A stretch of DNA of 64,000 nt from Escherichia phage Eps7. The notes beneath the pieces were generated by a model, which saw only the letters and a list, made by a program, of their open reading frames with translations, was not told the origin of the DNA and searched no databases. The position numbers and the translations under genes were made by a program. Shown here in pieces: positions 29,711 to 42,708 of this stretch (its first letter is position 1; each line of letters begins with the position of its first letter). The stretch lies in the sequence record NC_010583.1. One strand, written 5' to 3'.

Positions 29711-29787
29711 TGGTAGTTAGTAGTGGATTTGAACCACTGTAGTCGCTCCGTATGAAGGAGGTGCATAACCTCTCTGCCAACTAACTA
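29711..29787 (-). tRNA. tRNA with anticodon CAT (Met or Ile-lysidine type)
   Basis: manual fold: acceptor TAGTTAG/CTAACTA, T-arm GGTTCAAATCC, anticodon loop TTCATAC, encoded CCA. Confidence 0.6.
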
Positions 29788-29883
29788 TTATGTTTTACTA
29801 GACTAAGTAAGTATTCTTTATACTCTTTAGACCAATTAGTCTTTTTTAAACTTTCCTGGACGCATAGTCTTACTTCCTAAATT

Positions 29884-29960
29884 TGGTACTCCGGGAGGGA
29901 TTTAAACCCCCGATCTCTCGGTTATCAGCCGAGTGCTTTAGATCGCTAAGCTACCGAAGC
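29884..29960 (-). tRNA. tRNA-Ile (GAT)
   Basis: manual fold: anticodon stem CTCGG/CCGAG, loop CTGATAA, T-loop TTTAAAT, encoded CCA. Confidence 0.6.
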
Positions 29961-29961
29961 A

Positions 29962-30165
29962 TTAACATTTAATTGCAGAACGTTTACCATTTCTAGGCGC
30001 ACCTGGAAGTCGTGCACGTTCTGCCATTCTTCGCTTAATCTTTGGGATATTTTCTAGTGTTTGTTCTTCAGGCTTAATACCTGAAACACTACACCACTGA
30101 TTACCATCCCATGCGGTAATGATCATAACACCATTACCCATAATCTTTTGTGAAGTAATTCTCAT
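29962..30165 (-). CDS. hypothetical protein
   Basis: 67-aa ORF. Confidence 0.4.
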   Translation of the reverse strand: MRITSQKIMGNGVMIITAWDGNQWCSVSGIKPEEQTLENIPKIKRRMAERARLPGAPRNGKRSAIKC

Positions 30166-30458
30166 TATAACAACTCGTCTAAGTAAGAGGTATACTGGTA
30201 TTTAGCTTCACCAGTTTTATCTACTTCGACTTCTGTTCTAGGTACTTTTCGTACCAGACCGTGAATCATCTTATATTGAATAGATTTAGATGGTTCGTGA
30301 TCTTTAGGAAAGACCTGCTTAACTGTAACTACTTTAAATCCCTCACGTGGTGTTAGTACAACAACTTGATCACCTTCTTTGATTTTCCAAGACTCAGGAA
30401 ATTCATAAGTGTAGCGTTGACCACCGGTAAGGAATATAACAGAAAGATAACGTTTCAT
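30165..30458 (-). CDS. hypothetical protein
   Basis: 97-aa ORF 32 nt downstream of promoter. Confidence 0.5.
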   Translation of the reverse strand: MKRYLSVIFLTGGQRYTYEFPESWKIKEGDQVVVLTPREGFKVVTVKQVFPKDHEPSKSIQYKMIHGLVRKVPRTEVEVDKTGEAKYQYTSYLDELL

Positions 30459-30489
30459 TTGGTTTTCCTCTCATTAATTTATATAAACA

Positions 30490-30518
30490 TTATATCAAGA
30501 AATAAGAGGAAAGGCAAA
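30490..30518 (-). promoter_or_regulatory. sigma70-type early promoter (-35 TTGCCT)
   Basis: ATTATA 30490-30495, AGGCAA 30513-30518, 17-bp spacer. Confidence 0.55.
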
Positions 30519-30533
30519 TGAATTTTTAAATTT

Positions 30534-30608
30534 GGTGCTCCCACCAGGAATCGAACCCGGTTCAGATGCTTACAAGGCAACTGCATCGCCAGCAATGCTT
30601 TAGGAGCA
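30534..30608 (-). tRNA. tRNA-Thr (TGT)
   Basis: manual fold: T-arm CCGGGTTCGATTCCTGG, anticodon loop CTTGTAA, encoded CCA. Confidence 0.6.
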
Positions 30609-30774
30609 ATAAACCCGTTATTTCAACGGGATTTCTTTTTCAAATACAGGAGACTTATCAGACATTACTGTCATAGCCAACTGCTGTAGAAATTCGAATG
30701 AGAGTTTTAAACGTTCTTCGCCCAACTCAACCTCAACGCGCTTCATTCGTTTATCTACCTTTATCTTTAGATTA

Positions 30775-30996
30775 TCAGCCATCTTCGGGTTCTCTTTGCT
30801 CAGCTATTGCTAGCCAGTCTGGTAAAAGAAACTTAGTACGAAATTCTTCATATGTTTCTTCCGGATGAAAGCTATAGCCTTGCTTTTCATCATTTAATAA
30901 AACCGAACCGTCTTCCTGCTCATAAGCTCGGTATGTTTCACCAATAATTAAAACTCGCCTATTAGGGTTTTTATTACGAAACTCAAAAACGTCCAT
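30775..30996 (-). CDS. hypothetical protein
   Basis: 73-aa ORF. Confidence 0.5.
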   Translation of the reverse strand: MDVFEFRNKNPNRRVLIIGETYRAYEQEDGSVLLNDEKQGYSFHPEETYEEFRTKFLLPDWLAIAEQREPEDG

Positions 30997-31011
30997 AACG
31001 TTTCCTTAAAT

Positions 31012-31086
31012 TGGTGCGGGATACGAGAGTCGAACTCGTGTCTACTGGTTGGAAGCCAGTTATTCTAGCCACTGAACTAATCACGC
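31012..31086 (-). tRNA. tRNA-Gly (TCC)
   Basis: manual fold: anticodon stem ACTGG/CCAGT, loop CTTCCAA, T-loop TTCGACT, CCA. Confidence 0.65.
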
Positions 31087-31092
31087 ATAAAT

Positions 31093-31168
31093 TGGCTGGA
31101 GAAGGAGGAATCGAACCTACCATTAACGGAGTCAAAGGCCGTTGTGCTAACCGTTACACTACTCTCCA
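31093..31168 (-). tRNA. tRNA-Gln (TTG)
   Basis: manual fold: U1-A72, discriminator G, anticodon loop CTTTGAC, T-loop TTCGATT, CCA. Confidence 0.6.
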
Positions 31169-31174
31169 AGTATT

Positions 31175-31250
31175 TGGCTGGGATGCCACGGATCGAACGT
31201 GGAACCTTCGGAGTCAGAGGCCGACGATCTGCCAATTGATCTACATCCCA
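31175..31250 (-). tRNA. tRNA-Gln (CTG)
   Basis: manual fold: U1-A72, discriminator G, anticodon loop CTCTGAC, D-stem GATC, CCA. Confidence 0.6.
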
Positions 31251-31258
31251 ATAATTTT

Positions 31259-31459
31259 TTATTCTTCAGGAACCGTGGCTATTGGATCTGGTTCTTCTAG
31301 ACGTTTACCATTATGATCGACACGAATAATGCCACAACCTTCACAGATTACAACAGCACCATAGCCTTCTTTAACTTCGGCTTCTGTAATCAGACCAGAT
31401 AAATCACCAGTATCTTTGCCCCACATATCAATAGAGCATTCTTTGCAGAAATCAGCCAT
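31259..31459 (-). CDS. zinc-ribbon-like small protein
   Basis: 66-aa ORF with CxxC...CxxC. Confidence 0.5.
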   Translation of the reverse strand: MADFCKECSIDMWGKDTGDLSGLITEAEVKEGYGAVVICEGCGIIRVDHNGKRLEEPDPIATVPEE

Positions 31460-31483
31460 ATTTTATTTCCTATTTAAGTTAAT

Positions 31484-31558
31484 TGGTGCATCCTCAGGGA
31501 ATCGAACCCCGATCGTAAAGTTCGTAGCTTTACATTCTTTCCGTTGAAATAAGGACGC
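31484..31558 (-). tRNA. tRNA-Arg (ACG)
   Basis: manual fold: anticodon stem TAAAG/CTTTA, loop CTACGAA, T-loop TTCGATT, CCA. Confidence 0.6.
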
Positions 31559-31564
31559 AATATT

Positions 31565-31641
31565 TGGGGTGGCTAGTGGAATTCGAATCCACATAGGCCT
31601 GATTCACAATCAGGATCATTAACCAATTATGATATAGCCAC
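31565..31641 (-). tRNA. tRNA-His (GTG)
   Basis: manual fold: anticodon stem CCTGA/TCAGG, loop TTGTGAA, T-loop TTCGAAT, CCA. Confidence 0.7.
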
Positions 31642-31960
31642 AATTGAAATCTCTAGTTATCCCTTTCGGAGGGGCTAAAGGGCGATACCCATTCTAAAGA
31701 CTTCAATTGTGGCGGCTCTCCGAAACTCATCACACTAACAACTAGTTGATTACTTCTGGATTCTCGCCCAGAAAATTCTCTAGAAAGGTGCACCGTTACT
31801 CTTTGAGCCATTAATGTATCAAGAAGCAGAAGGACTTGAACCTTCACGAGATAGACCATTTATCTCAGCCTCGTTTTCGGGTATCTTATGAGGAGTGGAT
31901 GTTCCCCTTACGCCCTTTAGGAAGCCCCGTCTACCGATTCCGGCATACTTCAAGAATTAT
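31642..31960 (-). other. unresolved tRNA-like / structured RNA region
   Basis: ORF-free; contains Leu-tRNA-like D-arm GGAATCGGTAGAC and a T-arm GAAGGTTCAAGTCCTTC without clean acceptor pairing or CCA. Confidence 0.3.
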
Positions 31961-32164
31961 TTAAAACTTGTAACCTTCGGGAACCTTATCCTTAACACCA
32001 ATATACTCAGCTTGGATGTAATAATCAGGTACATGATCTTTTGGCAGATTCTTGTTAGTATCATGAACCTCAGCTCTAGCTTCTTCTTCAGAATCAAAAC
32101 CACGATACCAGATTTCACCACCCCAGCCACGTTCACTTTCGGTATACTTAACAATGTGTTTCAT
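31961..32164 (-). CDS. hypothetical protein
   Basis: track ORF 31961..32215 trimmed to internal Met so it does not overlap tRNA. Confidence 0.4.
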   Translation of the reverse strand: MKHIVKYTESERGWGGEIWYRGFDSEEEARAEVHDTNKNLPKDHVPDYYIQAEYIGVKDKVPEGYKF

Positions 32165-32182
32165 AAGGTTTTCCTTATTAGT

Positions 32183-32272
32183 TGGAGGAAGGTAATGGAG
32201 TCGAACCATCACCATATCGCTACAGCGGGCAGGTTTTCAAGACCTGTTACATACCACTATGTCCTACCTTCC
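32183..32272 (-). tRNA. tRNA-Ser (TGA), long variable arm
   Basis: manual fold: acceptor GGAAGGT/ACCTTCC, anticodon stem CAGGT/ACCTG, loop CTTGAAA, CCA; 90 nt. Confidence 0.65.
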
Positions 32273-32279
32273 AGTTGTT

Positions 32280-32370
32280 TGGCGGAAGAAGAGAGATTCG
32301 AACTCTCAAGCCGTTTTACCAGTCAGCCACTTTCCAAGCGGTTTTCGTCACCTAATCGATTTGCTCTTCC
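32280..32370 (-). tRNA. tRNA, long-variable-arm class (anticodon unresolved, possibly Ser-GGA)
   Basis: perfect T-arm GAGAGTTCGAATCTCTC, acceptor GGAAGAG/TTCTTCC, CCA; 91 nt. Confidence 0.5.
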
Positions 32371-32544
32371 GTAGATCTCAGGATTAAATCATAAACTTCA
32401 TTAGCGGATACTGGAAGTATGAGATTATACATCTTTTGGTCATACCTCTGACCATACTCTATAAACACATACTCTTTAGTTAATGTATTAACAGCTAACC
32501 AGATATCAGTTATAGGAGTTTTCATCATGAGTTAATCCAATGTT

Positions 32545-32625
32545 TGGTAGGGATGGAGGGACTCGAACCCACACCCGAAGACTAGAATCTAAATCTAGCG
32601 CGTCTGCCAATTTCGCCACATCCCC
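32545..32625 (-). tRNA. tRNA-Leu (TAG)
   Basis: manual fold: anticodon stem CTAGA/TCTAG, loop TTTAGAT, extended variable region, CCA. Confidence 0.6.
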
Positions 32626-32632
32626 ATTTTAT

Positions 32633-32851
32633 TTAGTTAGAAATAAATAATAATCCCGCAACAATGGAACCTACGCCACTGAACACCATTATCAGCATAG
32701 CTTCTAAGCTGATAAAGCGGACAGTATATGGAGCGCCCCAAGAATAATCAGTAAAGAAAGTTTTCTTTTCTTTAGCTAAATCTTTAACAGTTCTAAAATA
32801 GATAGCTAGTGCTAAAGCTGCAAGAACTATAGAGGCTGCTAAGAATACCAT
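32633..32851 (-). CDS. small membrane protein
   Basis: 72-aa ORF with two hydrophobic segments. Confidence 0.45.
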   Translation of the reverse strand: MVFLAASIVLAALALAIYFRTVKDLAKEKKTFFTDYSWGAPYTVRFISLEAMLIMVFSGVGSIVAGLLFISN

Positions 32852-32870
32852 ATTATTTCCTTAATTTGTT

Positions 32871-32946
32871 TGGTGGAGTCACTCAGAATTGAACTGAGTT
32901 CCACTGCTTGCAAGGCAGTAAGTTTAACCAAATAACCTATGACCCC
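32871..32946 (-). tRNA. tRNA-Ala (TGC)
   Basis: manual fold: G3-U70 pair, anticodon stem ACTGC/GCAGT, loop CTTGCAA, CCA. Confidence 0.6.
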
Positions 32947-32952
32947 GAATTT

Positions 32953-33031
32953 TGGTGGAGAATAACGGAATCGAACCGTTCTGATGTCCTCGGTGCAAGC
33001 GAGGTGTCCACTCCATGCAGACCCATTCCCC
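32953..33031 (-). tRNA. tRNA with anticodon TGC (second Ala-like copy)
   Basis: manual fold: G3-U70, anticodon stem CCTCG/CGAGG, loop CTTGCAC, T-arm AACGGTTCGATTCCGTT, CCA. Confidence 0.5.
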
Positions 33032-33040
33032 AAAATTTAT

Positions 33041-33304
33041 TTATTCTCTATACATATCGAGAACAGTTGCTACAATCTGAGCTTCTAGCCTAGCAATATC
33101 TTTATTCACTATATCAGATTCTACTACTAAGTGATTATATATTGCTTCAGTTTTAGCAAGATCTACATCAGATAGTTTATTAAGACTATTATAATACTTA
33201 GCATTATTGCAACGTTTCTTCATATCGGAAACTCGTTTATGGAGTGTTCTTTGTTGATAACGTTGTGACATTAGTTTCTTAGCCATATCTTTCAGATCAA
33301 ACAT
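33041..33304 (-). CDS. hypothetical protein
   Basis: 87-aa ORF with AGGAAT RBS. Confidence 0.5.
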   Translation of the reverse strand: MFDLKDMAKKLMSQRYQQRTLHKRVSDMKKRCNNAKYYNSLNKLSDVDLAKTEAIYNHLVVESDIVNKDIARLEAQIVATVLDMYRE

Positions 33305-33548
33305 GGATATTCCTTCTAGTTTACTAAGGCTATTAGCTCGGTGTGCGTATTACCCTCAGACATTAGCCAGTAGAGGATAATCGCTCTTCACAAACCCGAT
33401 ACACTATTCAGTTGCCGCTGAATCTAGCGGACTAATCTAGAACTTCTCCCGAGTCGTAGGGATCGTGCTTTTTTGGCAGCCAGTCCTAGGTCGAGCTAAT
33501 ACCTTAGTGAACTTTGATGAGGATTTCTCCTCATCAATTTATATAAAT
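33305..33548 (-). ncRNA. candidate structured leader / small RNA
   Basis: 245-nt ORF-poor transcribed segment between promoter and next start codon; long-range complement TAAGGTATTAGCTCG vs CGAGCTAATAGCCTTA; local hairpins. Confidence 0.3.
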
Positions 33549-33577
33549 ATTATAACAAGAAATTAAGCATCAAGCAA
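33549..33577 (-). promoter_or_regulatory. sigma70-type early promoter
   Basis: ATTATA 33549-33554, AAGCAA 33572-33577, 17-bp spacer. Confidence 0.6.
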
Positions 33578-33929
33578 GTACATTTTTAGCGATTTCTTGT
33601 AGTTCCTTAACGTCGCTAACGAAAAGGTAATCAGAGCTTCCAGAGTGCATACTCTGCATAACCACACCACCATCCGGTGCATCTTCTTTCAGTGTGATAC
33701 CTAACCAGAACTCGGCAAAACTAGGTGTTACCTCACCTTGACTTGCCTTGAACACATCGCCTTCTGTGATCTCTTGACCAGTGGAGAGTCCCATGTATGG
33801 TACGTTCAGATCAATATCTTTGTAGAACTCAGCTAGATCTTGCTCGAAATCCCAACCTTTAGAGATAGCGAACTCCATTGTTACATGACCGAAATAGCCT
33901 TGAACCTTGCTTGATAATTGCATTTGCAA
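33570..33929 (-). CDS. hypothetical protein
   Basis: 119-aa ORF. Confidence 0.5.
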   Translation of the reverse strand: MQMQLSSKVQGYFGHVTMEFAISKGWDFEQDLAEFYKDIDLNVPYMGLSTGQEITEGDVFKASQGEVTPSFAEFWLGITLKEDAPDGGVVMQSMHSGSSDYLFVSDVKELQEIAKNVLA

Positions 33930-33948: not shown

Positions 33949-34022
33949 TGGTACTCGGTGATAGAATCGAACTATCGCAACCGCCGTGTAAAGACGGGGT
34001 TCTCCCATTAAACTAACCGAGC
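33949..34022 (-). tRNA. tRNA-Val (TAC)
   Basis: manual fold: T-arm GATAGTTCGATTCTATC, anticodon stem CCGTC/GGCGG, loop TTTACAC, CCA. Confidence 0.6.
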
Positions 34023-34026: not shown

Positions 34027-34104
34027 TGGTGGATTGCCTGGGATTCGAACCCAGAACTGACGGATTAAAGGTCCGCTACTCTTATCCAGTTGAGCTAGCA
34101 ATCC
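34027..34104 (-). tRNA. tRNA-Lys (TTT)
   Basis: manual fold: anticodon stem GCGGA/TCCGT, loop CCTTTAA, T-arm CTGGGTTCGAATCCCAG, CCA. Confidence 0.6.
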
Positions 34105-34490
34105 AATTTTTCTACTAATAATTTAAAAGCATCTAGTACAGGTACTTCAAACCATTCTCCAGATACTCTATAATCTTTAAGAAGATTATGTAATTCTTTC
34201 TCTGTACGTCTTTTATCCGACGAAAATCTGAAATGGTATAGCTTGTAGTCTCTATTAGGTGAATAAGTTTGATAACTTGTTAACCTCTCATTCACATCTA
34301 TAGTCATACCTATTTTATACATGCCTGGCCATGCTGGATTACCAATTACATATACAAAACCTTCCGTTATAGGTATTTTATGCTCCCTTTTATACTTTAA
34401 GAGATTTAAGGCTGCCATTCGATAACAGAATCTAAACTCTGAAGTTTTTAACTTACCTTCTTTACCTGAAATTTCGTTATATTTGCTCAT
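34095..34490 (-). CDS. T5orf172-type (GIY-YIG-like) domain protein
   Basis: 131-aa ORF with YVIGNPAWPGMYKIGMT...RL...Y pattern; 3' end overlaps tRNA by ~10 nt. Confidence 0.5.
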   Translation of the reverse strand: MSKYNEISGKEGKLKTSEFRFCYRMAALNLLKYKREHKIPITEGFVYVIGNPAWPGMYKIGMTIDVNERLTSYQTYSPNRDYKLYHFRFSSDKRRTEKELHNLLKDYRVSGEWFEVPVLDAFKLLVEKLDC

Positions 34491-34744: not shown

Positions 34745-34822
34745 TGGAAGCGGGTGCAGGAATCGAACCTACCTCTTTCTAGCTTATGAGACTAGCGATC
34801 TCTACCAGAGATCTAACCCGCA
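34745..34822 (-). tRNA. tRNA-Met (CAT), possibly initiator type
   Basis: manual fold: unpaired 1-72, anticodon loop CTCATAA, T-loop TTCGATT, CCA. Confidence 0.55.
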
Positions 34823-34828: not shown

Positions 34829-34907
34829 TGGTCTCCGTGGGAGGATTTGAACCCCCCGACCCTATCGCCCCAAACGAAACGCTCTGGCCAAACTGAGCTA
34901 CACGGAG
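34829..34907 (-). tRNA. tRNA-Pro (TGG)
   Basis: manual fold: acceptor CTCCGTG/CACGGAG, anticodon loop TTTGGGG, T-loop TTCAAAT, CCA. Confidence 0.55.
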
Positions 34908-35212: not shown

Positions 35213-35287
35213 TGGTGCGGTCGGAGGGAATCGAACCCTCAACTTCTGGTTGGCAACCAAAAAATTATACCTTTTAACTACGAACGC
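35213..35287 (-). tRNA. tRNA-Gly (GCC)
   Basis: manual fold: T-arm GAGGGTTCGATTCCCTC, anticodon stem TTTGG/CCAGA, loop TTGCCAA, CCA. Confidence 0.6.
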
Positions 35288-35302
35288 ATAATAAGTCAAT
35301 CT

Positions 35303-35440
35303 AGGCAGGACTTGAACCTGCTATCACTTGTGCGGATTTACGAGAACCATTCTTTCACTCGAATCGAACGAGCTTCTACCCTCGGCAAGCTGGTGTCCCC
35401 TCTCCACCACGCTAGAATGATAATTAATGCCTGCTCCTTT
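35303..35440 (-). other. unresolved tRNA-like region (two T-arm-like motifs, no encoded CCA)
   Basis: GCAGGTTCAAGTCCTGC and GCTCGTTCGATTCGAGT motifs; acceptor stems could not be paired by hand. Confidence 0.3.
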
Positions 35441-35500: not shown

Positions 35501-35576
35501 TGGTACACCCACTAGGACTTGAACCTAGAACCCTCCGCTTAAGAGGCGGTAGCTCTAACCATTGAGCTATGGATGT
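35501..35576 (-). tRNA. tRNA-Lys (CTT)
   Basis: manual fold: T-arm CTAGGTTCAAGTCCTAG, anticodon loop CTCTTAA, CCA. Confidence 0.55.
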
Positions 35577-35652: not shown

Positions 35653-35729
35653 TGGCGCGACCGATGGGATTCGAACCCACATTTTCTCCCGTGACAGGGG
35701 AGTACCATTACCAAGCCAGCCCCGATCGC
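35653..35729 (-). tRNA. tRNA-Asp (GTC)
   Basis: manual fold: anticodon stem CTCCC/GGGAG, loop CTGTCAC, T-loop TTCGAAT, discriminator G, CCA. Confidence 0.65.
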
Positions 35730-36025: not shown

Positions 36026-36108
36026 TGGCGGGCCGTGTAGGATTCGAACCTACGTTGTCTTTCGACATGGATTAACAGTCCACCGCCAAACCGCTTGGCT
36101 AACGACCC
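36026..36108 (-). tRNA. tRNA-Asn (GTT) with enlarged variable region
   Basis: manual fold: anticodon arm GTGGACTGTTAATCCAT, T-arm GTAGGTTCGAATCCTAC, CCA; 83 nt. Confidence 0.55.
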
Positions 36109-36115: not shown

Positions 36116-36191
36116 TGGACGACCGCATGAGATTCGAACTCACATAAGGAGGTTTTGCAGGCCTCCGCCTAAGCCATTCAGCCAACGGTCG
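36116..36191 (-). tRNA. tRNA-Cys (GCA)
   Basis: manual fold: anticodon loop CTGCAAA, discriminator U, T-loop TTCGAAT, CCA. Confidence 0.55.
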
Positions 36192-36930: not shown

Positions 36931-37005
36931 TGGTGCAACCTGTACGTAACGATCGTACCTCTTCTCCTTTTCAGGGAGACGCTAATCCATCTCAGCTAAA
37001 GTCGC
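36931..37005 (-). tRNA. tRNA-Phe (GAA)
   Basis: manual fold: anticodon stem TCTCC/GGAGA, loop CTGAAAA, CCA; atypical T-loop. Confidence 0.5.
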
Positions 37006-37011: not shown

Positions 37012-37088
37012 TGGCAAACCTACTAGGACTCGAACCTAGACCGTACGGTTTTGGAGACCGACATGCTGTCCAGTAACACTCTAGGAAT
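37012..37088 (-). tRNA. tRNA-like, anticodon probably CCA (Trp); acceptor stem imperfect
   Basis: T-arm CTAGGTTCGAGTCCTAG, anticodon arm CGGTCTCCAAAACCG, CCA end; 5' acceptor pairs poorly. Confidence 0.4.
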
Positions 37089-37096: not shown

Positions 37097-37173
37097 TGGC
37101 GTCCTGTGCGGGGATCGAACCCGCAAATCCTACCTTGAAAGGGTAGTGACTTTACCAGTTTGTCTAACAGGAC
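37097..37173 (-). tRNA. tRNA-Glu (TTC)
   Basis: manual fold: acceptor GTCCTGT/ACAGGAC, anticodon stem CTACC/GGTAG, loop CTTTCAA, CCA. Confidence 0.7.
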
Positions 37174-37737: not shown

Positions 37738-37767
37738 TCGTTAACTCCTTCATCAATTTATATAACT

Positions 37768-37797
37768 ATTATAGCAGAAATCTTAAGTAAAAAGCAA
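37768..37797 (-). promoter_or_regulatory. sigma70-type early promoter
   Basis: ATTATA 37768-37773, AAGCAA 37792-37797, 18-bp spacer. Confidence 0.6.
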
Positions 37798-37827
37798 GTA
37801 CATTTTTAAAATTTCTGCTTGGAGGAG

Positions 37828-38185: not shown

Positions 38186-38262
38186 TGGTAGGGGTGGTGG
38201 GATTCGAACCCACAAAACCTGAATTTTAAGTCCAGTACCTATGCCAATTCGATTACACCCCC
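38186..38262 (-). tRNA. tRNA with anticodon TAA (Leu-type) but short variable arm
   Basis: manual fold: T-arm GTGGGTTCGAATCCCAC, anticodon stem CTGGA/TTCAG, loop CTTAAAA, CCA; D-arm irregular. Confidence 0.45.
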
Positions 38263-38794: not shown

Positions 38795-38811
38795 ATAGTC
38801 TCCTAGTTAAT

Positions 38812-38889
38812 TGGTGGCTCCCGGAGGATTCGAACCTACCTACCTTTCGCTTATGAGGCGACGGCTCATACCAAATGAGCTTGAGAACC
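38812..38889 (-). tRNA. tRNA with anticodon CAT (third CAT tRNA)
   Basis: manual fold: D-stem GCTC/GAGC, anticodon loop CTCATAA, T-loop TTCGAAT, CCA. Confidence 0.55.
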
Positions 38890-38894
38890 AAATT

Positions 38895-38988
38895 TGGAGG
38901 AAGATGCCAGATTCGAACTGGCACACCGTGTCTCCACAGCTACTGGCTGTTTAGCAAACAGCTCCCTTACCTTTAGGGTTAATCTTCC
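38895..38988 (-). tRNA. tRNA-Ser (GCT), long variable arm
   Basis: manual fold: acceptor GGAAGAT/ATCTTCC, anticodon loop TTGCTAA, T-arm GCCAGTTCGAATCTGGC, 94 nt, CCA. Confidence 0.6.
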
Positions 38989-39002
38989 GAATTTATGAAT
39001 AT

Positions 39003-39031
39003 ATTATACAGAAAATTTCGGCATTAAGCAA
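39003..39031 (-). promoter_or_regulatory. sigma70-type early promoter upstream of tRNA pair
   Basis: ATTATA 39003-39008, AAGCAA 39026-39031, 17-bp spacer. Confidence 0.6.
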
Positions 39032-39039
39032 GTGAAATT

Positions 39040-39336
39040 TTACTGAACATTGCACTGATATACTTGTTTGATACGTGTCACTGACTTCTTAGTTGGGTTG
39101 ATAGAAGAACCCTGCCACCAACGTGATTCTGAGCTGAGAACAGCCCCAGGAACAGCTTGTTCTTTTGGCAGAACAATATCAAAACACTGTTCACCCATAT
39201 TATCTTTAATGTGCGACCAAATGTCTAGAGTAAATCGTTCTAGCTTATTACAAACTTGAACTTGACAAAGTTCCTGTTGTGGAGCAGCAAATACAGAAGT
39301 AGATACTAGAGTCAATGCAAGTACAATGCGTTTCAT
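39040..39336 (-). CDS. secreted/periplasmic protein (signal peptide)
   Basis: track ORF trimmed to MKRIVLALTLVSTSVFA start; MREESNM prefix is a leader artefact. Confidence 0.5.
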   Translation of the reverse strand: MKRIVLALTLVSTSVFAAPQQELCQVQVCNKLERFTLDIWSHIKDNMGEQCFDIVLPKEQAVPGAVLSSESRWWQGSSINPTKKSVTRIKQVYQCNVQ

Positions 39337-39366
39337 ATTTGATTCCTCTCTCAAATTTATAAATAT

Positions 39367-39394
39367 ATTATACAGAAATTTTCTATATAAGCAA
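39367..39394 (-). promoter_or_regulatory. sigma70-type early promoter
   Basis: ATTATA 39367-39372, AAGCAA 39389-39394, 16-bp spacer. Confidence 0.55.
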
Positions 39395-39411
39395 GGTAAA
39401 AATTTATGTAT

Positions 39412-39434
39412 ATAGCCCTCTAAGCGAGGGCTAT
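39412..39434 (-). terminator. hairpin ATAGCCCTC-loop-GAGGGCTAT downstream of pnuC-like gene
   Basis: perfect 9-bp stem; T-rich tract is weak. Confidence 0.4.
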
Positions 39435-39441
39435 AACTACT

Positions 39442-40134
39442 TTATTTGTTAACGCGTACAAAGTATCCTTTATAGGCTCCCATAATAGAGTTACCTAAGA
39501 ATACTAGCCACATTGCTAGGATTGCATAAGATGCACCTGTAGATTGAGCAGTTACAAGCCAAATGTACACAGTACCAATGTTAATAGCAATCCAAATCAG
39601 CCATTGTTCAGCATATTGTTTGACCATAAGCCACATAGCAATCACACTACCTACCGCAGTAAATGCATCCAACATTGGGAATGGATCAGCCGTAGTAGCA
39701 AGGAAACTACCATAACCTAACGTGGCTACTGCTAAAATCCCTAGAGTCAGCAAAGCTTGAGCTTTTGTCAGAACTTTAGTTGGAACATCCGGCAGATTAC
39801 TTGGCTTATTTTTATGCCATAAGTACATTCCATAAAACTGCATAGGAACGTAGTATAGCAGGTTTAGTGCAGCGTTACCATAAAGATCTGCGTTTAAAGC
39901 TGTAATACCATATGTAAGAACACCCACTAAGCCCCAAATATAGTTGGAAACACGTCCTTTTGCAACCAGAATAACACAAACCACATTGGTTATTGCAGTA
40001 GCCCAATCTAGAGCTGTACCATTATAGTTTGCTAAACTAATAAAGGCGACTGCTATAAACAGCCACAGATATTCCAGAGGTTTCCAGTTTTTAAAGTCAT
40101 TTACGAGATAGTTAGTCATATTAAAACTCTCCAA
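39442..40134 (-). CDS. pnuC: PnuC-like nicotinamide riboside transporter
   Basis: 230-aa multi-TM ORF overlapping the end of the NadR-like gene; size and topology typical of PnuC. Confidence 0.55.
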   Translation of the reverse strand: MESFNMTNYLVNDFKNWKPLEYLWLFIAVAFISLANYNGTALDWATAITNVVCVILVAKGRVSNYIWGLVGVLTYGITALNADLYGNAALNLLYYVPMQFYGMYLWHKNKPSNLPDVPTKVLTKAQALLTLGILAVATLGYGSFLATTADPFPMLDAFTAVGSVIAMWLMVKQYAEQWLIWIAINIGTVYIWLVTAQSTGASYAILAMWLVFLGNSIMGAYKGYFVRVNK

Positions 40135-41176
40135 AGATAAAGTGATGAATCAGCCAGTCTACTGCGTTTACTGCTTCGTCCATACGAACTTTGTAGTCCG
40201 GAGAGTCGATGTAAACAGTACGCCCTTCAGGGAACTGATTTGGAAATTCTTTCTTCATCTGCTCGAACAGTTCAGAAGTAATTGAACGATCGGAGTTAAT
40301 ACGTAAACCATCATCTACCCACTTGACAGTAGGCGCTAGAACAATTACTAAATCGTAATGTTCTTCTTTTGCAATTGCTGTAACCACAGGGTTCTTACTA
40401 TGTTCATAAAGTCTGTGGTAGAACTCAGTAATAAAAGCATTTGTATCCACAAACATGATCTTATTTGCAGTACGTTTTGCTTCAAACTCTAGCTCTTTGT
40501 GTCTGAACGCAATTTTACTATAGTCTTCGCTGGTAAGCAGATTTTCGTTACCAACTAGATCAACTTCACAATACGTTCGGCCATATTCTTTTACCCACGA
40601 AGTGTTGTATAGCTTCGCAAGGTATTTTGTTAAAGTAGTCTTTCCTGAGCTTTCAGTCCCAATGATTACAACCTTACGCACGTAATCTTTACGAACTACG
40701 CTAGGAAGAAACTCCCAATACTTCATAAGATCATTACGAATCATTGTAGCTGAGATTGGAACACGAGTCCGATCAGAATCTACAATATAATGACCAAACT
40801 TCGGCAGATATTTCTTATATTCTGCATCATAGTCTAGTTCGCTAGAGAAAATGGTGATCTCAGGCAAATGTCCGTAATTTTCATTAAGGATTCTAGCATA
40901 TTCCGGCCAACCATTCGGATATTCAGGAATATCATCTTCAATAATGTACTCTACCGAAATGTGCTCAATATCCGCGTAAGTTTGTTCTAACCAACGAAGT
41001 CGATTCTTTAACTGTAATACTTCCTGATCACGTGTGTTCTGCTTATCCAGCCAACGATTATCATGACTAACTACAACAATAACTCGTTCACACATAGTTG
41101 CTGCTGTGTTTATTAGGTTAATATGACCACGCGTTAATGGCGCGAACTTACCAATTACTAGACCAGTCTTAATCAT
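40121..41176 (-). CDS. nadR: NadR-like bifunctional NMN adenylyltransferase / ribosylnicotinamide kinase
   Basis: N-terminal nucleotidyltransferase motif GKFAPLTRGHINLI and C-terminal Walker A GTESSGKTT; start trimmed to MIKTGLV. Confidence 0.65.
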   Translation of the reverse strand: MIKTGLVIGKFAPLTRGHINLINTAATMCERVIVVVSHDNRWLDKQNTRDQEVLQLKNRLRWLEQTYADIEHISVEYIIEDDIPEYPNGWPEYARILNENYGHLPEITIFSSELDYDAEYKKYLPKFGHYIVDSDRTRVPISATMIRNDLMKYWEFLPSVVRKDYVRKVVIIGTESSGKTTLTKYLAKLYNTSWVKEYGRTYCEVDLVGNENLLTSEDYSKIAFRHKELEFEAKRTANKIMFVDTNAFITEFYHRLYEHSKNPVVTAIAKEEHYDLVIVLAPTVKWVDDGLRINSDRSITSELFEQMKKEFPNQFPEGRTVYIDSPDYKVRMDEAVNAVDWLIHHFIFGEF

Positions 41177-41205
41177 ATTTGATTCCTCTCTCAAATTTAT
41201 AAATA

Positions 41206-41234
41206 TATTATACAGAGAATTTAGCGTTCAAGCA
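41206..41234 (-). promoter_or_regulatory. sigma70-type early promoter
   Basis: ATTATA 41206-41211, AAGCAA 41229-41234, 17-bp spacer. Confidence 0.6.
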
Positions 41235-41390
41235 ATCGAATTTTTAAACTTTTTAGTGGAAAAATCTCAAGGCATTTAGTGGTAGCACGTTGTTGCTACA
41301 ATAATAGTATATGTATTACTAAAGTAAATAAAGAATTAAATACTAAAGACCTTAGTTGAATAACTTATGGGCTTTTCTTTTGCCTTAAAT

Positions 41391-41427
41391 ACAGAAAAGC
41401 CCGCGCTCTCGGAGGAAACGCGGGCTT
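41391..41427 (-). terminator. rho-independent terminator
   Basis: AGCCCGCG-loop-CGCGGGCT stem followed on minus strand by TTTTCT. Confidence 0.65.
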
Positions 41428-41450
41428 GGTTCGAAGATTACGTGTAACTA

Positions 41451-42395
41451 TTACTTGTTACGCATATCCATGATCATTTGACCATCGTAGCCAGTACCAA
41501 CAACAGTCTGCGGTACACCACCTTGTATTTTTCAGCACGAAGCATTTCAAACTTCCAGCTGCTTCCAACGAATCATTTCAGGAGTAATGGTACGTTGCAG
41601 CGCGGCGTTAGCTTCAGCTTCTTTCTTAGCTGCGTACAGTTTAGCATCTGCGTCACGTTCGTTAGCTACTGCCATGTTTTCACGAGCAGAACGATCAGCT
41701 TCAGCTTGCTTAACTTTCTGCTGTGCTTCTTGTTCAACACGAGCCAATTCAGCTTTAGCGGCGTTAACTTGTTCTTCACGAACTTTTGTGTTTTGTACCT
41801 GTTCCATGATTACAGGTGGCAGAGTAATATCCTGAAGGAATACTTGCTTAACCGTGTAACCATAAGGACGCGCGTACTCTTCTACTTCTTGCTGAATAGC
41901 AGTTTGCAGTTGAGCCTGAATCTTAGCGTCGAACAGATCTTGTGCTTTTGGTACAGACTTACCAAACTCACGAATCGTAGATAGCATCTTCTCTTCAACG
42001 TACTTGTTCAGAGCTTGATCCTGAGTACCTGCGTTAACACGGTTCATAGGAGCTTTAGCACCATCAAACTGCAACATAACGGTAATGTCAACAGTGGACT
42101 TAAACTTATCCTGGCTAGGAACCTGAAGTTTATCCAGTTTCATGGAAATATCTTTCGTACTAAAAGTATCAAAAGAAGCAAATGGGTTAACAATATGGAA
42201 GCCTGGCAATACAGGATTAGGGCTAACTTTACCCAGGAAGGTTTGGGTCTTAACAGTACCATCCTGAACAACTGTGTAGGAATTGAGAGCCAGAATAAGA
42301 GCGCCAAGACCAACTACAGCACCAACACCCCAACGTTTGATAGTGCGAATTACTTTTTGCTCAGAAGTCAGTTCTTTAGTGTTTTTAGTAAACAT
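41451..42395 (-). CDS. SPFH/band-7 (stomatin/prohibitin-like) membrane protein, C-terminus frame-shifted
   Basis: 282-aa ORF with N-terminal TM and long Gln/Ala coiled-coil region; protein-like frame continues to stop near 41451. Confidence 0.5.
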
Positions 42396-42406
42396 ATATT
42401 TCCTTA

Positions 42407-42607
42407 TTATTTAGAAGAGTTAGCTACTACAGTTACTTTAGTTGCAGAAATAAACAGGCTAGCATCCACAGCAAATTCAGGAGCTTTGATATCTCCATTA
42501 TGAAATATGACTATACCGGAGACTACTTCAAATGCTAGTGCTGTAACATCGGTGGTATTTACTTGTGAATGTTCACCTACTACTTTTACTATATATCGTG
42601 TTTTCAC
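42407..42607 (-). CDS. hypothetical protein
   Basis: 66-aa ORF downstream of tRNA. Confidence 0.45.
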   Translation of the reverse strand: MKTRYIVKVVGEHSQVNTTDVTALAFEVVSGIVIFHNGDIKAPEFAVDASLFISATKVTVVANSSK

Positions 42608-42633
42608 TTTATTTTCCTAGCAGTTAATAAAAT

Positions 42634-42708
42634 TGGCCGAGGTGACAGGATTCGAACCTGCATAAAGGAATTTAGAAGACTCCTGCCTATCCCTTAGACT
42701 ACACCCCG
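42634..42708 (-). tRNA. tRNA-Arg (TCT)
   Basis: manual fold: acceptor CGGGGTG/CACCTCG, anticodon stem GGAGT/ATTCC, loop CTTCTAA, T-arm GCAGGTTCGAATCCTGT, CCA. Confidence 0.6.

What the first reader, a model, noticed from the sequence alone, without database searches (positions are those of the whole stretch)
29711..42708. About 30 tRNA genes with three CAT anticodons, rare-codon isoacceptors and apparent duplicates
Manual folding finds tRNAs for Ile(GAT), Thr, Gly(TCC, GCC), Gln(TTG, CTG), Arg(ACG, TCT), His, Ser(TGA, GCT, plus one unresolved type II), Leu(TAG, TAA), Ala(TGC, apparently twice), Val, Lys(TTT, CTT), Pro, Asp, Asn, Cys, Phe, Trp (tentative), Glu and Tyr, plus three CAT tRNAs (candidates for initiator, elongator Met and Ile-lysidine). 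All are on the minus strand, most with encoded CCA, interleaved with small ORFs and promoters. Several are atypical: Asn with an enlarged variable region, a Leu(TAA)-anticodon tRNA with a short variable arm, and two Ala(TGC) copies both carrying G3-U70.
Basis: seen in the sequence. Interest (0 to 1): 0.55.

Follow-up and report, generated by a model that had tools for sequence, protein, structure and literature searches.

The report
T5-like phage tRNA gene cluster
This is the well-known tRNA-rich region of a T5-like bacteriophage: 30 phage tRNA genes that supply decoders for codons rare in the host and replace host tRNAs destroyed by bacterial defence nucleases. It is real but already annotated in hundreds of genomes.

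Summary
ARAGORN finds 29 tRNA genes, all on the minus strand, at exactly 29711-42708. Dinucleotide shuffles of the window gave 1 call in 20 shuffles. Rfam passes 27. All 30 encode CCA and all 20 amino acids are covered.

The window is an Epseptimavirus (Demerecviridae), 97.8% identical to Escherichia phage PSa2, which annotates the same 29 tRNAs. The array is collinear with the T5 tRNA region. It also carries T5-type promoters and homologues of T5's tRNA-like stable RNAs.

The atypical candidates are real:
- The 77-nt Leu(UAA) tRNA with a 5-nt variable loop belongs to a family with compensatory changes in 17 of 20 pairs. That family keeps the E. coli LeuRS identity set.
- The 79-nt Ala(UGC) fails Rfam but covaries in 10 of 23 pairs, with G3·U70 invariant.

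The three CAT tRNAs fit elongator Met, an initiator-like tRNA and Ile2, as T5 annotates them. The phage tRNAs cover AGA, CUA, AUA and GGA, codons enriched 5-14 fold over E. coli. The tRNA-Tyr is identical to the one shown to defeat retron-Eco7.

Verdict: already known, low interest. Side observations: a C33 tRNA-Lys allele linked to a T5orf172 endonuclease gene, and a tRNA-His gene without an encoded G-1.

The parts
29711..29786 (-). tRNA-Met(CAT), elongator type (T5 tRNAM homologue); anticodon loop UUCAUAC
   Evidence: ARAGORN; Rfam 49.6 bits; T5 annotation; conserved in Klebsiella and Pectobacterium phages
29884..29960 (-). tRNA-Ile(GAT)
   Evidence: 64.7 bits
30533..30607 (-). tRNA-Thr(TGT). 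It is 72/75 identical to T5 tRNA-Thr with an identical anticodon arm, and has G39 (UAAG) instead of the AriB motif UAAU
   Evidence: PMC12409363
31012..31086 (-). tRNA-Gly(TCC)
   Evidence: 65.5 bits
31093..31168 (-). tRNA-Gln(TTG)
   Evidence: 50 bits
31175..31250 (-). tRNA-Gln(CTG)
   Evidence: 56.4 bits
31484..31558 (-). tRNA-Arg(ACG); absent from T5
   Evidence: (53.4 bits)
31565..31641 (-). tRNA-His(GTG); C73 is kept but the -1 base is T, so no G-1 is encoded
   Evidence: (59.9 bits)
31810..31954 (-). homologue of T5 'RNA1' (tRNA-like stable RNA), 80.7% identity; holds a GAAGG-UUCAAGU-CCUUC T-arm
32183..32272 (-). tRNA-Ser(TGA), class II, U73
   Evidence: ARAGORN; best Rfam match is the tRNA-Sec model at 40.5 bits, below its threshold; annotated in PSa2, BSP22A and T5
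32280..32371 (-). tRNA-Ser(GGA), 92 nt, weak D-arm, G73.
   Evidence: ARAGORN -ps90; alignment; homologues with changed stems in T5, Pectobacterium and Vibrio phages
32545..32625 (-). tRNA-Leu(TAG), 81 nt, shortened 8-nt variable region; D-arm almost identical to E. coli leuW
   Evidence: (55.4 bits)
32871..32946 (-). tRNA-Ala(TGC), 76 nt, G3.U70
   Evidence: (59.6 bits)
32953..33031 (-). tRNA-Ala(TGC), 79 nt, atypical: G8, 6-bp D stem with 5-nt loop, 7-nt variable loop, G3.U70
   Evidence: ARAGORN; fails Rfam (23.6 bits); present in 404 phage records; covariation in 10/23 pairs, 98.6% of cells paired
33388..33501 (-). homologue of T5 'RNA2H' stable RNA (94.7% over 113 nt)
33523..33598 (-). 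homologue of T5 promoter P13b (90.8%)
33949..34022 (-). tRNA-Val(TAC)
   Evidence: 57.8 bits
34027..34104 (-). tRNA-Lys(TTT), allele with C33 (loop CCUUUAA), anticodon stem GCGGA/UCCGU, U36AAUC|C41
   Evidence: (59.9 bits)
34095..34490 (-). 131-aa ORF with T5orf172/MUG113 domain (GIY-YIG-like putative homing endonuclease); overlaps the 5' end of tRNA-Lys
   Evidence: Pfam PF13455 E=2.6e-18 and PF10544 E=4.4e-15; linkage to the C33 allele
34745..34822 (-). initiator-like tRNA(CAT): U1xU72 mismatch, G2C3G4G5G6 acceptor as in E. coli fMet, A11:U24. It lacks the three G:C pairs in the anticodon stem and has U73
   Evidence: (43.6 bits)
34829..34907 (-). tRNA-Pro(TGG)
   Evidence: 47.8 bits
34924..34986 (-). 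homologue of T5 promoter P13a (93.8%), just upstream of Pro and the initiator-like tRNA; contains TTGCTA-17-TATAAT
35213..35287 (-). tRNA-Gly(GCC); absent from T5
   Evidence: (54 bits)
35295..35421 (-). homologue of T5 'RNA2' (tRNA-like stable RNA, 89.6%); includes the CCA-less Ala(TGC)-like remnant at 35349-35421
35501..35576 (-). tRNA-Lys(CTT); absent from T5
   Evidence: (64.8 bits)
35653..35729 (-). tRNA-Asp(GTC)
   Evidence: 46 bits
35951..36025 (-). homologue of T5 'RNA3' (putative tRNA-like RNA, 94.5%); acceptor-like stem, ends ACCA, no canonical anticodon loop
   Evidence: z = -2.58
36026..36108 (-). tRNA-Asn(GTT), 83 nt, with an enlarged variable region (GUC-GAAA-GAC), G73
   Evidence: (59 bits)
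36116..36191 (-). tRNA-Cys(GCA)
   Evidence: 40.7 bits
36594..36668 (-). homologue of T5 promoter P14b (86.7%)
36931..37005 (-). tRNA-Phe(GAA), T-loop AUCGUUA (A54/U58 swap); a rare allele
   Evidence: (44.7 bits)
37012..37088 (-). tRNA-Trp(CCA), A1-U72, G73, conserved U2.U71 and U3.U70 mismatches
   Evidence: (36.3 bits)
37097..37173 (-). tRNA-Glu(TTC)
   Evidence: 61.1 bits
37181..37271 (-). tRNA-Tyr(GTA), class II, 91 nt; 100% identical to phage SP15 tRNA-Tyr
   Evidence: (32.6 bits); PMC11555353
37368..37443 (-). homologue of T5 promoter P14a (92.1%), upstream of the Tyr-Glu-Trp-Phe cluster
37742..37816 (-). homologue of T5 promoter P15c (90.7%)
38186..38262 (-). tRNA-Leu(TAA), 77 nt, class-I shape (5-nt variable loop), Leu-type D-arm, A73; absent from T5
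   Evidence: (57.4 bits)
38812..38889 (-). tRNA-Ile2-like (CAT): A73, U12:A23, C29:G41, A37A38 (T5 tRNAI2 homologue)
   Evidence: (40 bits)
38895..38988 (-). tRNA-Ser(GCT), class II, 94 nt
   Evidence: 48.4 bits
30463..30537 (-). homologue of T5 promoter P11 (88%), downstream of Thr; contains TTGCCT-17-TATAAT with TG
41181..41255 (-). homologue of T5 promoter P15a (96%)
39442..41194 (-). pnuC (NMN transporter) and nadR-like (NMN adenylyltransferase/kinase) genes embedded in the array
   Evidence: Pfam PF04973 E=3e-43; PF13521 and PF01467; PSa2 annotation
41547..42395 (-). SPFH/Band 7 protein gene
   Evidence: Pfam PF01145 E=1.9e-19
42634..42708 (-). tRNA-Arg(TCT), reads AGA/AGG
   Evidence: (49.3 bits)
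42709..42984 (-). partial homologue of T5 'RNAX' stable RNA, immediately upstream of tRNA-Arg(TCT)

Best explanation
The region is the tRNA-rich early region of a T5-like siphovirus (Demerecviridae, Epseptimavirus). It holds 30 tRNA genes covering all 20 amino acids plus an initiator-like tRNA. They lie in short clusters with 4-8 nt spacers, separated by small conserved ORFs, T5-type early promoters and tRNA-like stable RNAs.

Inferred mechanism:
1. Host RNA polymerase transcribes the clusters from the strong phage promoters.
2. Host RNase P and 3' nucleases process the transcripts. CCA is encoded, so it does not need to be added.
3. Host synthetases charge the tRNAs.

The tRNAs then do two things. 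They raise the supply of decoders for A/U-ending codons that the 39.5% GC phage uses far more than E. coli or Salmonella does (AGA, CUA, AUA, GGA, ACA, UUA, GUA, CCA). They also keep translation going when host defence nucleases destroy particular host tRNAs, either because the phage copies are made in excess or because their altered stems and loops are poor substrates. This second role has been shown experimentally for T5 and SP15 homologues: tRNA-Lys/Thr/Asn against PARIS AriB, tRNA-Tyr against retron-Eco7 PtuAB, and tRNA-Lys against PrrC. For this phage it is inferred from sequence identity or similarity.
For: - Identity: 97.8% nucleotide identity over 97% of 29500-43000 to Escherichia phage PSa2. 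628 phage records match. PSa2 annotates the same 29 tRNAs in the same order.
- Collinearity with curated T5 (AY543070): tRNAs, promoters and stable RNAs correspond.
- tRNA calls: 29 by ARAGORN and 27 by Rfam, against 0.05 per shuffled window.
- Function of the atypical members is supported by covariation. Leu family: 17/20 pairs with changes on both sides, 0/500 shuffles reach the observed value. Ala79: 10/23 pairs, 0/500.
- Codon supply: AGA 14x, AGG 9x, CUA 7.4x, AUA 5.6x, GGA 4.9x, ACA 2.5x, GUA 2.4x, UUA 2.3x, CCA 2.2x enriched relative to an E. coli sample. In each case the phage encodes a U34 anticodon (for AUA, the CAU/Ile2-type) that reads the enriched A-ending codon; AGG has no cognate phage tRNA and would be read by Arg(UCU) wobble.
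[quoted passage not shown] T5 tRNA-Lys/Thr/Asn neutralise PARIS (PMC11464382; PMC12409363).
- At least five tRNA-Lys(UUU) alleles with different anticodon stems, all unlike E. coli's, circulate among relatives without following taxonomy.
Against: - No expression, processing or charging data exist for this particular phage.
- This phage's tRNA-Lys allele (C33, U36AAUC|C41) keeps most of the AriB recognition motif and is untested. Its tRNA-Asn keeps UAAUC|C like the E. coli target. Resistance to PARIS therefore cannot be assumed.
- The T5 record notes that several T5 tRNAs, including Ser2(GGA), did not yield amber suppressors, so some members may be weak or inactive.
- tRNA-His lacks an encoded G-1, a major HisRS determinant.
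- E. coli LeuRS failed to charge a Streptomyces type-I tRNA-Leu (PMC6614811).
- The PARIS paper notes that published T5 tRNA abundance versus codon frequency does not directly support pure codon compensation.
Confidence: 0.9

Rival explanations
1. Pure codon compensation: the tRNAs exist only to match the tRNA pool to the AT-rich codon usage of the phage, with no role against host defences.
For: Every E. coli-rare codon that the phage over-uses (AGA, CUA, AUA, GGA) has a cognate phage tRNA. The anticodon chosen in four- and six-codon boxes is always the U34 form that reads the enriched A-ending codon.
Against: - The set also includes tRNAs for codons the phage does not over-use, or for which there is no codon choice (Met, Trp, GAA 0.98x, UUC 0.93x, AAA 0.80x).
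- It has two to three isodecoders with the same anticodon (Ala UGC x2).
- There is strong allelic diversification of anticodon stems in tRNA-Lys.
- Experiments show T5/SP15 tRNAs are needed specifically on PARIS, retron-Eco7 and PrrC hosts, while tRNA-deletion mutants grow on naive hosts.
Confidence: 0.15
2. Host-shutoff buffering: T5-like phages degrade host DNA and stop host transcription early, so a full phage-encoded tRNA set simply sustains the tRNA pool through the long infection, independent of codon bias or of specific nucleases.
For: The set is nearly complete: all 20 amino acids plus an initiator-like tRNA. It is driven by multiple strong early promoters homologous to T5's. This idea is recalled from the literature on tRNA acquisition by lytic phages, not tested here.
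Against: tRNAs are stable relative to a 40-60 min infection. Natural T5 deletion mutants lacking 11-17 tRNAs are viable. The idea does not explain the unusual structures or the allele turnover.
Confidence: 0.2
3. Selfish-element driven mosaic: much of the sequence peculiarity and allele turnover of the tRNA genes reflects homing endonuclease activity. Endonuclease genes insert next to tRNA genes and co-convert flanking tRNA sequence, and variant tRNA sequence protects against self-cleavage. On this view the turnover is not selection on tRNA function.
For: - A T5orf172/GIY-YIG-like ORF abuts tRNA-Lys.
- Its orthologue (88-100% aa identity) is found next to the C33 allele in 9 of 10 loci and never next to other alleles.
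- 45-48% paralogues sit next to other tRNAs (Asn in T5, Glu/Tyr in BSP22A).
- T5 carries HNH endonucleases F-TflI, II and IV inside the array.
- Allele distribution ignores genus boundaries.
Against: It explains how alleles spread, not why a 30-gene array is kept. Stems covary so that the cloverleaf is preserved, which shows selection on tRNA function. The two explanations are compatible.
Confidence: 0.3
4. Some of the atypical members are decaying pseudogenes carried along by linkage: the 79-nt Ala, Ser(GGA), C33 Lys, G-1-less His, and the initiator-like tRNA without the 3 G:C pairs.
For: - Ala79 and Ser(GGA) fail default detectors.
- T5 notes record that Ser2(GGA) and several others gave no suppressor.
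- True remnants exist nearby (35349-35421, RNA1/RNA2/RNA3 homologues).
Against: - Ala79 is conserved in 404 records across at least 9 host genera and a second phage family, with 10 compensatory pairs.
- Ser(GGA) keeps a perfect acceptor stem and differs by paired changes from T5 and Vibrio copies.
- C33 is retained in a diverged copy.
- The T at -1 of His is invariant in 8 phages from four host genera while the stems change.
Confidence: 0.1

Closest known systems
tRNA gene region of bacteriophage T5 (GenBank AY543070 / NC_005859; called the 'tRNA-rich region' by Azam et al. 2024, PMC11555353)
   Same: - Same genomic position, between the grcA-like gene and the early region.
- Same strand and same order of shared tRNAs: Met-Ile-Thr-Gly-Gln-Gln-His-Ser-Ser-Leu-Ala-Val-Lys-fMet-Pro-Asp-Asn-Cys-Phe-Trp-Glu-Tyr-Ile2-Ser-Arg.
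- Homologous promoters (P11, P13a/b, P14a/b, P15a/c).
- Homologues of stable RNAs RNA1, RNA2, RNA2H, RNA3 and RNAX.
   Different: - The window has five tRNAs T5 lacks: Arg ACG, a second Ala, Gly GCC, Lys CUU and Leu UAA.
- It lacks T5's HNH endonuclease genes hegA/C/D and RNAI/RNAIII.
- It carries pnuC-nadR inside the array.
- It has different alleles of Lys, Asn, Tyr, Ala, Leu(UAG) and Phe.
Escherichia phage PSa2 (OL770310) and other Epseptimavirus genomes
   Same: 97.8% identity across the region, with the identical 29 annotated tRNAs.
   Different: PSa2 has a 74-nt Ala(UGC) in place of the 79-nt one and a different tRNA-Phe allele. It leaves Ser(GGA) and the T5orf172 ORF unannotated.
Phage T4 tRNA cluster (8 tRNAs) and large arrays in phages such as Vibrio KVP40 or mycobacteriophages (from general knowledge)
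   Same: Clustered phage tRNA genes with short spacers, biased to codons rare in the host and proposed to evade anticodon nucleases (PMC10264068).
   Different: Those are unrelated sequences, and the T4 set is much smaller. T4 counters PrrC by tRNA repair enzymes rather than by a replacement tRNA-Lys.
Type-I (short variable loop) tRNA-Leu of Streptomyces coelicolor and animal mitochondria (PMC6614811)
   Same: Leu anticodon on a class-I cloverleaf with a 4-5 nt variable loop.
   Different: The phage tRNAs keep the E. coli-type Leu D-arm (3-bp stem, 11-nt loop with A14, A15, G18G19 and A20a), U48 and A73. E. coli LeuRS did not charge the Streptomyces type-I tRNA. E. coli tRNA-Leu variants lacking the variable arm are charged (PMC9976931).

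Membership tests
Canonical tRNA (Rfam RF00005 / ARAGORN cloverleaf) | Covariance-model score at or above the gathering threshold (29 bits) | tested here: met
   27 of 30 genes score 32.6-65.5 bits. The exceptions are Ser(TGA), whose best clan hit is tRNA-Sec at 40.5 bits; Ala79 at 23.6 bits; and Ser(GGA), not reported.
Canonical tRNA (Rfam RF00005 / ARAGORN cloverleaf) | Four-arm cloverleaf kept by compensatory changes in homologues (tested for the members that fail or look atypical) | tested here: met
   Ala79: 10/23 pairs changed on both sides, 98.6% of cells paired, 0/500 shuffles. 77-nt Leu family: 17/20 pairs, 96.4% paired, 0/500. Ser(GGA): paired differences from T5, Pectobacterium and Vibrio copies seen by eye only.
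T5-like (Demerecviridae) tRNA-rich region | Nucleotide homology and synteny with annotated T5-like genomes | tested here: met
   628 matching phage records, best at 97.8% identity and 97% coverage. tRNA order is collinear with T5, PSa2, BSP22A, IrisVonRoten and TrudiGerster.
T5-like (Demerecviridae) tRNA-rich region | Interspersed T5-type early promoters and tRNA-like stable RNAs | tested here: met
   Homologues of P11, P13a, P13b, P14a, P14b, P15a and P15c at 87-96% identity. Homologues of RNA1, RNA2, RNA2H, RNA3 and part of RNAX at 80-95%. RNAI and RNAIII were not found.
T5-like (Demerecviridae) tRNA-rich region | Dispensable on naive hosts, required on hosts with tRNA-targeting defences | not testable with these tools
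   Shown for T5 and SP15 in PMC11464382, PMC12409363 and PMC11555353. Not tested for this phage.
Bacterial initiator tRNA (fMet) | Mismatch at 1x72 | tested here: met
   U1xU72 in 34745-34822. E. coli metZ has C1xA72.
Bacterial initiator tRNA (fMet) | Formylase determinants G2:C71, C3:G70, G4:C69, and A11:U24 in the D stem | tested here: met
   The acceptor UGCGGGU/ACCCGCU matches E. coli CGCGGGG/CCCCGCA at positions 2-6. The D stem GAUC/GAUC gives A11:U24.
Bacterial initiator tRNA (fMet) | Three consecutive G:C pairs (29-41, 30-40, 31-39) in the anticodon stem | tested here: not met
   The stem is CUAGU/GCUAG, giving A29:U41, G30:C40 and U31.G39. The discriminator is also U73, not A73. I therefore call it initiator-like rather than a canonical initiator. 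T5 annotates its identical homologue as fMet.
tRNA-Ile2 (CAU anticodon converted to lysidine) | CAU anticodon with the IleRS identity set: A73, U12:A23, C29:G41, A37, A38 | tested here: met
   38812-38889 has all five. E. coli elongator Met has U29:A41.
tRNA-Ile2 (CAU anticodon converted to lysidine) | TilS acceptor determinants C4:G69 and C5:G68 | tested here: inconclusive
   U4:A69 (Met-like) but C5:G68 (Ile2-like). Lysidine formation itself cannot be tested here.
Class II tRNA-Leu | Long variable arm (stem-loop, 10 nt or more) | tested here: not met
   38186-38262 has a 5-nt variable loop. 32545-32625 has 8 nt without a stable stem.
E. coli LeuRS substrate (leucine identity) | A73, A14, A15-U48 Levitt pair, G18G19 placement, A20a (PMC9976931) | tested here: met
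   All are present in both Leu genes, and U8, A14, A15, G18, G19, U48 and A73 are invariant in the 8-sequence 77-nt family. Charging itself was not tested. PMC6614811 reports E. coli LeuRS inactive on a Streptomyces type-I tRNA-Leu.
AlaRS substrate | G3.U70 wobble pair | tested here: met
   Both Ala genes have it. It is invariant in the 9 distinct Ala79 homologues.
HisRS substrate (bacterial type) | Encoded G-1 opposite C73 | tested here: not met
   C73 is present, but base -1 is T in the window and in 7 other Demerecviridae loci. E. coli hisR has G.
Experimentally validated counter-defence tRNAs | Sequence identity to a tRNA shown to rescue phage from a defence system | tested here: met
   tRNA-Tyr is 91/91 identical to SP15 tRNA-Tyr, tested against retron-Eco7. 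tRNA-Thr is 72/75 identical to T5's with an identical anticodon arm. The Lys and Asn alleles differ from the tested T5 and SP15 ones.

The most novel reading that the evidence does not exclude
Some of the odd-shaped isodecoders may be structural escape variants. On this reading they were selected to stay chargeable while becoming poor substrates for tRNA-targeting defence nucleases. The candidates are tRNA-Lys(UUU) with C33, the class-I-shaped tRNA-Leu(UAA/UAG), and the tRNA-Ala(UGC) with a 6-bp D stem.

The C33 tRNA-Lys in particular may travel with the adjacent T5orf172 (GIY-YIG-like) endonuclease gene as a mobile counter-defence cassette. Its C33 could block nucleases that cut at the 33/34 junction (PrrC type). 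None of this allele-specific biology appears in the papers I could search.
Probability: 0.25. Interest if true: 0.5.

Novelty: already known. Interest (0 to 1): 0.15.

Why it matters
The biology, phage tRNA arrays as codon supplements and as countermeasures to tRNA-cleaving immunity, has been an active and well-documented topic since 2023. This array adds another natural combination of alleles.

The parts that could matter:
- An untested tRNA-Lys allele with C33, linked to a putative homing endonuclease.
- A widespread class-I-shaped tRNA-Leu family in enterobacterial phages. This is a natural test of whether E. coli LeuRS really ignores the variable arm.
- A tRNA-His gene without G-1. This is a natural test of HisRS and RNase P rules.

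Tried and rejected
1. A generic sigma-70 and terminator consensus scan of 29000-43500 found 26 promoter-like sites against 35.1 expected, and 11 terminator-like sites against 9.3. It was uninformative. Promoters were mapped instead by homology to annotated T5 promoters.
2. Global identity of the three CAT tRNAs to E. coli metT, metZ and ileY (45-53 identical positions each) does not discriminate them. Identity elements and the T5 annotation were used instead.
3. ARAGORN at -ps80 and -ps70 gives 64 and 251 calls spread over the whole window, which is noise. Only the two extra minus-strand calls at -ps90 inside the array were followed. The plus-strand call at 63228-63301 was dismissed: no CCA, poor stems and outside the array.
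4. MFE z-scores of the RNA1, RNA2 and RNA2H homologues, and of Ala79 and Ser(GGA), are not significant (-0.25 to -0.96). Single-sequence folding cannot judge them, so covariation was used.
5. I considered that Ala79 is a pseudogene. Rejected by conservation and covariation.
6. I considered that C33 is a sequencing error. Rejected: 52 identical GenBank records, a diverged copy that keeps C33, and 5 IMG/VR contigs.
7. I considered that the 77-nt UAA tRNA is not a Leu tRNA. Its D-arm, U48 and A73 match the E. coli Leu identity set.
8. I searched for a U33 version of the same T5-like Lys backbone. It was not found. The U33 form of that anticodon arm sits only on unrelated tRNA-Lys backbones.
9. 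Weak plus-strand Rfam hits to Plastid-ycf2 and similar families are the reverse complements of tRNAs and are meaningless.

Full report
**What is there.** ARAGORN finds 29 tRNA genes in the window. All are on the minus strand, from 29711-29786 to 42634-42708, and there are none elsewhere. The Rfam tRNA model passes its gathering score for 27 of them. Twenty dinucleotide-preserving shuffles of the whole window yielded a single ARAGORN call, so the array is far beyond chance. With a slightly relaxed ARAGORN threshold, two more minus-strand calls appear inside the array:
- Ser(GGA) next to Ser(TGA). With its true 5' end at 32371 it has a perfect 7-bp acceptor stem, G73 and CCA. It is identical to the annotated BSP22A_t010 and homologous to T5 tRNAS2(GGA).
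- A CCA-less Ala(TGC)-like remnant at 35349-35421.

All 30 genes encode CCA. Spacers inside clusters are 4-8 nt. All 20 amino acids are represented.

**Where the window comes from.** The region 29500-43000 matches 628 phage records. The best is Escherichia phage PSa2 (Demerecviridae, Epseptimavirus) at 97.8% identity over 97% of the query. PSa2 annotates the same 29 tRNAs in the same order. The curated T5 record (AY543070) shows the same architecture, with tRNA genes interleaved with small ORFs, named early promoters, homing endonuclease genes and "stable RNAs". BLAST of those T5 features against the window gave:
- Promoter homologues: P11 at 30537-30463, P13b at 33598-33523, P13a at 34986-34924, P14b at 36668-36594, P14a at 37443-37368, P15c at 37816-37742 and P15a at 41255-41181.
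- Stable-RNA homologues: RNA1 at 31954-31810, RNA2H at 33501-33388, RNA2 at 35419-35295 (this contains the Ala-like remnant), RNA3 at 36023-35951, and part of RNAX at 42984-42709.

The small ORFs belong to conserved PHROG families of unknown function. The larger genes embedded in the array are pnuC, a nadR-like gene and an SPFH protein gene. Compared with T5, the window has five extra tRNAs: Arg ACG, a second Ala, Gly GCC, Lys CUU and Leu UAA.

**The three CAT tRNAs.** T5 names the homologues tRNA-Met, tRNA-fMet and tRNA-Ile2.
- The gene at 34745-34822 has a U1xU72 mismatch, the same G2-C3-G4-G5-G6 acceptor sequence as E. coli initiator tRNA, and A11:U24. It lacks the three G:C pairs of the anticodon stem and has U73. 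It is initiator-like rather than canonical.
- The gene at 38812-38889 has A73, U12:A23, C29:G41 and A37A38, as in E. coli tRNA-Ile2. It has U4:A69, not C4:G69.
- The gene at 29711-29786 is highly conserved across Escherichia, Klebsiella and Pectobacterium phages and is the elongator by exclusion.

**The atypical members.**
- *Leu(TAA), 38186-38262.* It has a class-I shape with a 5-nt variable loop and still scores 57.4 bits. It occurs in more than 300 phage records at 95% identity or higher and is annotated there as tRNA-Leu. Equivalent 77-nt tRNAs with UAA or UAG anticodons occur in Escherichia, Pectobacterium, Klebsiella and Vibrio Demerecviridae. On an eight-sequence alignment, 17 of 20 pairs show changes on both sides, 96.4% of cells pair, and no shuffle reaches these values. 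U8, A14, A15, G18, G19, U48 and A73 are invariant. The D-arm is nearly that of E. coli leuW. These are the published E. coli LeuRS identity elements, and E. coli tRNA-Leu variants without the variable arm remain substrates (PMC9976931). However, E. coli LeuRS did not charge a Streptomyces type-I tRNA-Leu (PMC6614811). Leucine identity is likely but unproven.
- *The 79-nt Ala(TGC), 32953-33031.* It fails Rfam at 23.6 bits. It has G8, a 6-bp D stem with a 5-nt loop and a 7-nt variable loop. It is present in 404 records, including a Klebsiella myovirus of another family. Ten of 23 pairs covary, 98.6% of cells pair, and G3.U70 is invariant. It is a real, unusual tRNA-Ala. The two Ala genes are only 59% identical.
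- *Asn.* It carries a GUC-GAAA-GAC mini-arm in the variable region. The allele is shared by several relatives, one of which has a compensatory change in the anticodon stem.
- *Trp.* It keeps two U.U mismatches in the acceptor stem in phages of all four host genera that carry it, while neighbouring pairs covary.

**How it most likely works.** The window's ORFs (12.4k codons) use A/U-ending codons much more than an E. coli K-12 sample (10.6k codons) does. The fold enrichments within amino-acid families are AGA 14x, AGG 9x, CUA 7.4x, AUA 5.6x, GGA 4.9x, ACA 2.5x, GUA 2.4x, UUA 2.3x and CCA 2.2x. In each family the phage encodes the anticodon that reads the enriched codon. This supports the classic codon-supplement role.

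Published experiments on T5 and SP15 show a second role:
- T5 tRNA-Lys, tRNA-Thr and tRNA-Asn neutralise the PARIS nuclease AriB, which cuts host tRNAs at U36AAUC|A41 (PMC11464382, PMC12409363).
- SP15/T5 tRNA-Tyr rescues phage from retron-Eco7. SP15 tRNA-Lys rescues from a PrrC system (PMC11555353).

The window's tRNA-Tyr is 100% identical to SP15's. Its tRNA-Thr has T5's anticodon arm, with UAAG instead of UAAU. Relatives carry at least five tRNA-Lys(UUU) alleles with different anticodon stems, and their distribution does not follow genus boundaries. I therefore take the dual explanation (codon supply plus replacement of nuclease-targeted host tRNAs) as best supported. The counter-defence step is shown for homologues and inferred here. 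Rival or complementary views are pure codon compensation, buffering of host shut-off, and homing-endonuclease-driven mosaicism. They are weighed in the rivals section.

**Novelty.** The array, its gene content and its function are already known and annotated, so the finding itself is ordinary.

**Seen in passing.**
1. This phage's tRNA-Lys(UUU) has C33 (loop CCUUUAA). The allele is identical in 52 GenBank records and in 4 of the 5 IMG/VR contigs that carry its C33 anticodon arm, and C33 is retained in a diverged copy. The U33 form of the same anticodon arm occurs only on unrelated tRNA-Lys backbones. The allele tested against PrrC in the literature is a U33 one.
2. A 131-aa T5orf172/MUG113 ORF (34095-34490) abuts the tRNA-Lys gene. 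Its orthologue accompanies the C33 allele in 9 of 10 loci and none of 6 loci with other alleles.
3. The tRNA-His gene has T, not G, at position -1 in all eight Demerecviridae loci examined, while E. coli hisR has G-1.

These are leads rather than results. I found no paper addressing them in the searchable library.

Noticed in passing
34027-34104 (-): tRNA-Lys(UUU) has C at the near-universal U33 position (loop CCUUUAA). The allele is identical in 52 GenBank phage records and in 4 of the 5 IMG/VR contigs that carry its C33 anticodon arm, and C33 is kept in the diverged slur09 copy. The U33 form of the same anticodon arm occurs only on unrelated tRNA-Lys backbones. The allele keeps U36AAUC|C41, so it is only partly changed at the AriB site.
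   Followed up: partly
34095-34490 (-): A 131-aa T5orf172/MUG113 (GIY-YIG-like) ORF overlaps the 5' end of tRNA-Lys. Its orthologue (88-100% aa identity) lies next to the C33 allele in 9 of 10 loci and next to none of 6 other Lys alleles. 45-48% paralogues sit beside other tRNAs in T5, BSP22A and a Klebsiella phage. It is unannotated in PSa2.
   Followed up: partly
31565-31644 (-): The tRNA-His gene has T, not G, at position -1 while keeping C73. The same is true in all 8 Demerecviridae loci checked (Escherichia, Salmonella, Pectobacterium and Vibrio phages). E. coli hisR encodes G-1.
   Followed up: partly
31810-31954, 33388-33501, 35295-35421, 35951-36025, 42709-42984 (-): Homologues of T5 stable RNAs RNA1, RNA2H, RNA2, RNA3 and part of RNAX. 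RNA3 ends in ACCA with an acceptor-like stem but no 7-nt anticodon loop. RNA1 holds a T-arm and a CUCAUAA motif. RNA2 contains a CCA-less Ala(UGC)-like remnant.
   Followed up: partly
37012-37088 (-): tRNA-Trp keeps U2.U71 and U3.U70 mismatches in the acceptor stem in Escherichia, Salmonella, Klebsiella and Pectobacterium phages, while pairs 6-67 and 7-66 covary.
   Followed up: no
36931-37005 (-): The tRNA-Phe T-loop is AUCGUUA (A54 and U58 instead of T54 and A58), shared with several relatives. The window's Phe allele differs from that of its closest relative PSa2 and is identical in only 6 of 441 matching records.
   Followed up: partly
32183-32272 and 38895-38988 (-): Ser(UGA) and Ser(GCU) have U73 rather than the G73 of E. 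coli tRNA-Ser (E. coli value recalled, not checked here), while Ser(GGA) has G73.
   Followed up: no
L017 (Klebsiella phage vB_KpnM_Seu621, Vequintavirinae): The 79-nt atypical tRNA-Ala(UGC) is also present, at 91.6% identity, in a 143-kb myovirus of a different family, next to Arg and Leu tRNAs. This suggests tRNA exchange between phage families.
   Followed up: no
29159-29527 (-): A glycyl-radical (GrcA-like, PF01228) gene lies just downstream of the array. The pnuC-nadR NAD-salvage genes and an SPFH protein gene lie inside it (39442-42395).
   Followed up: no
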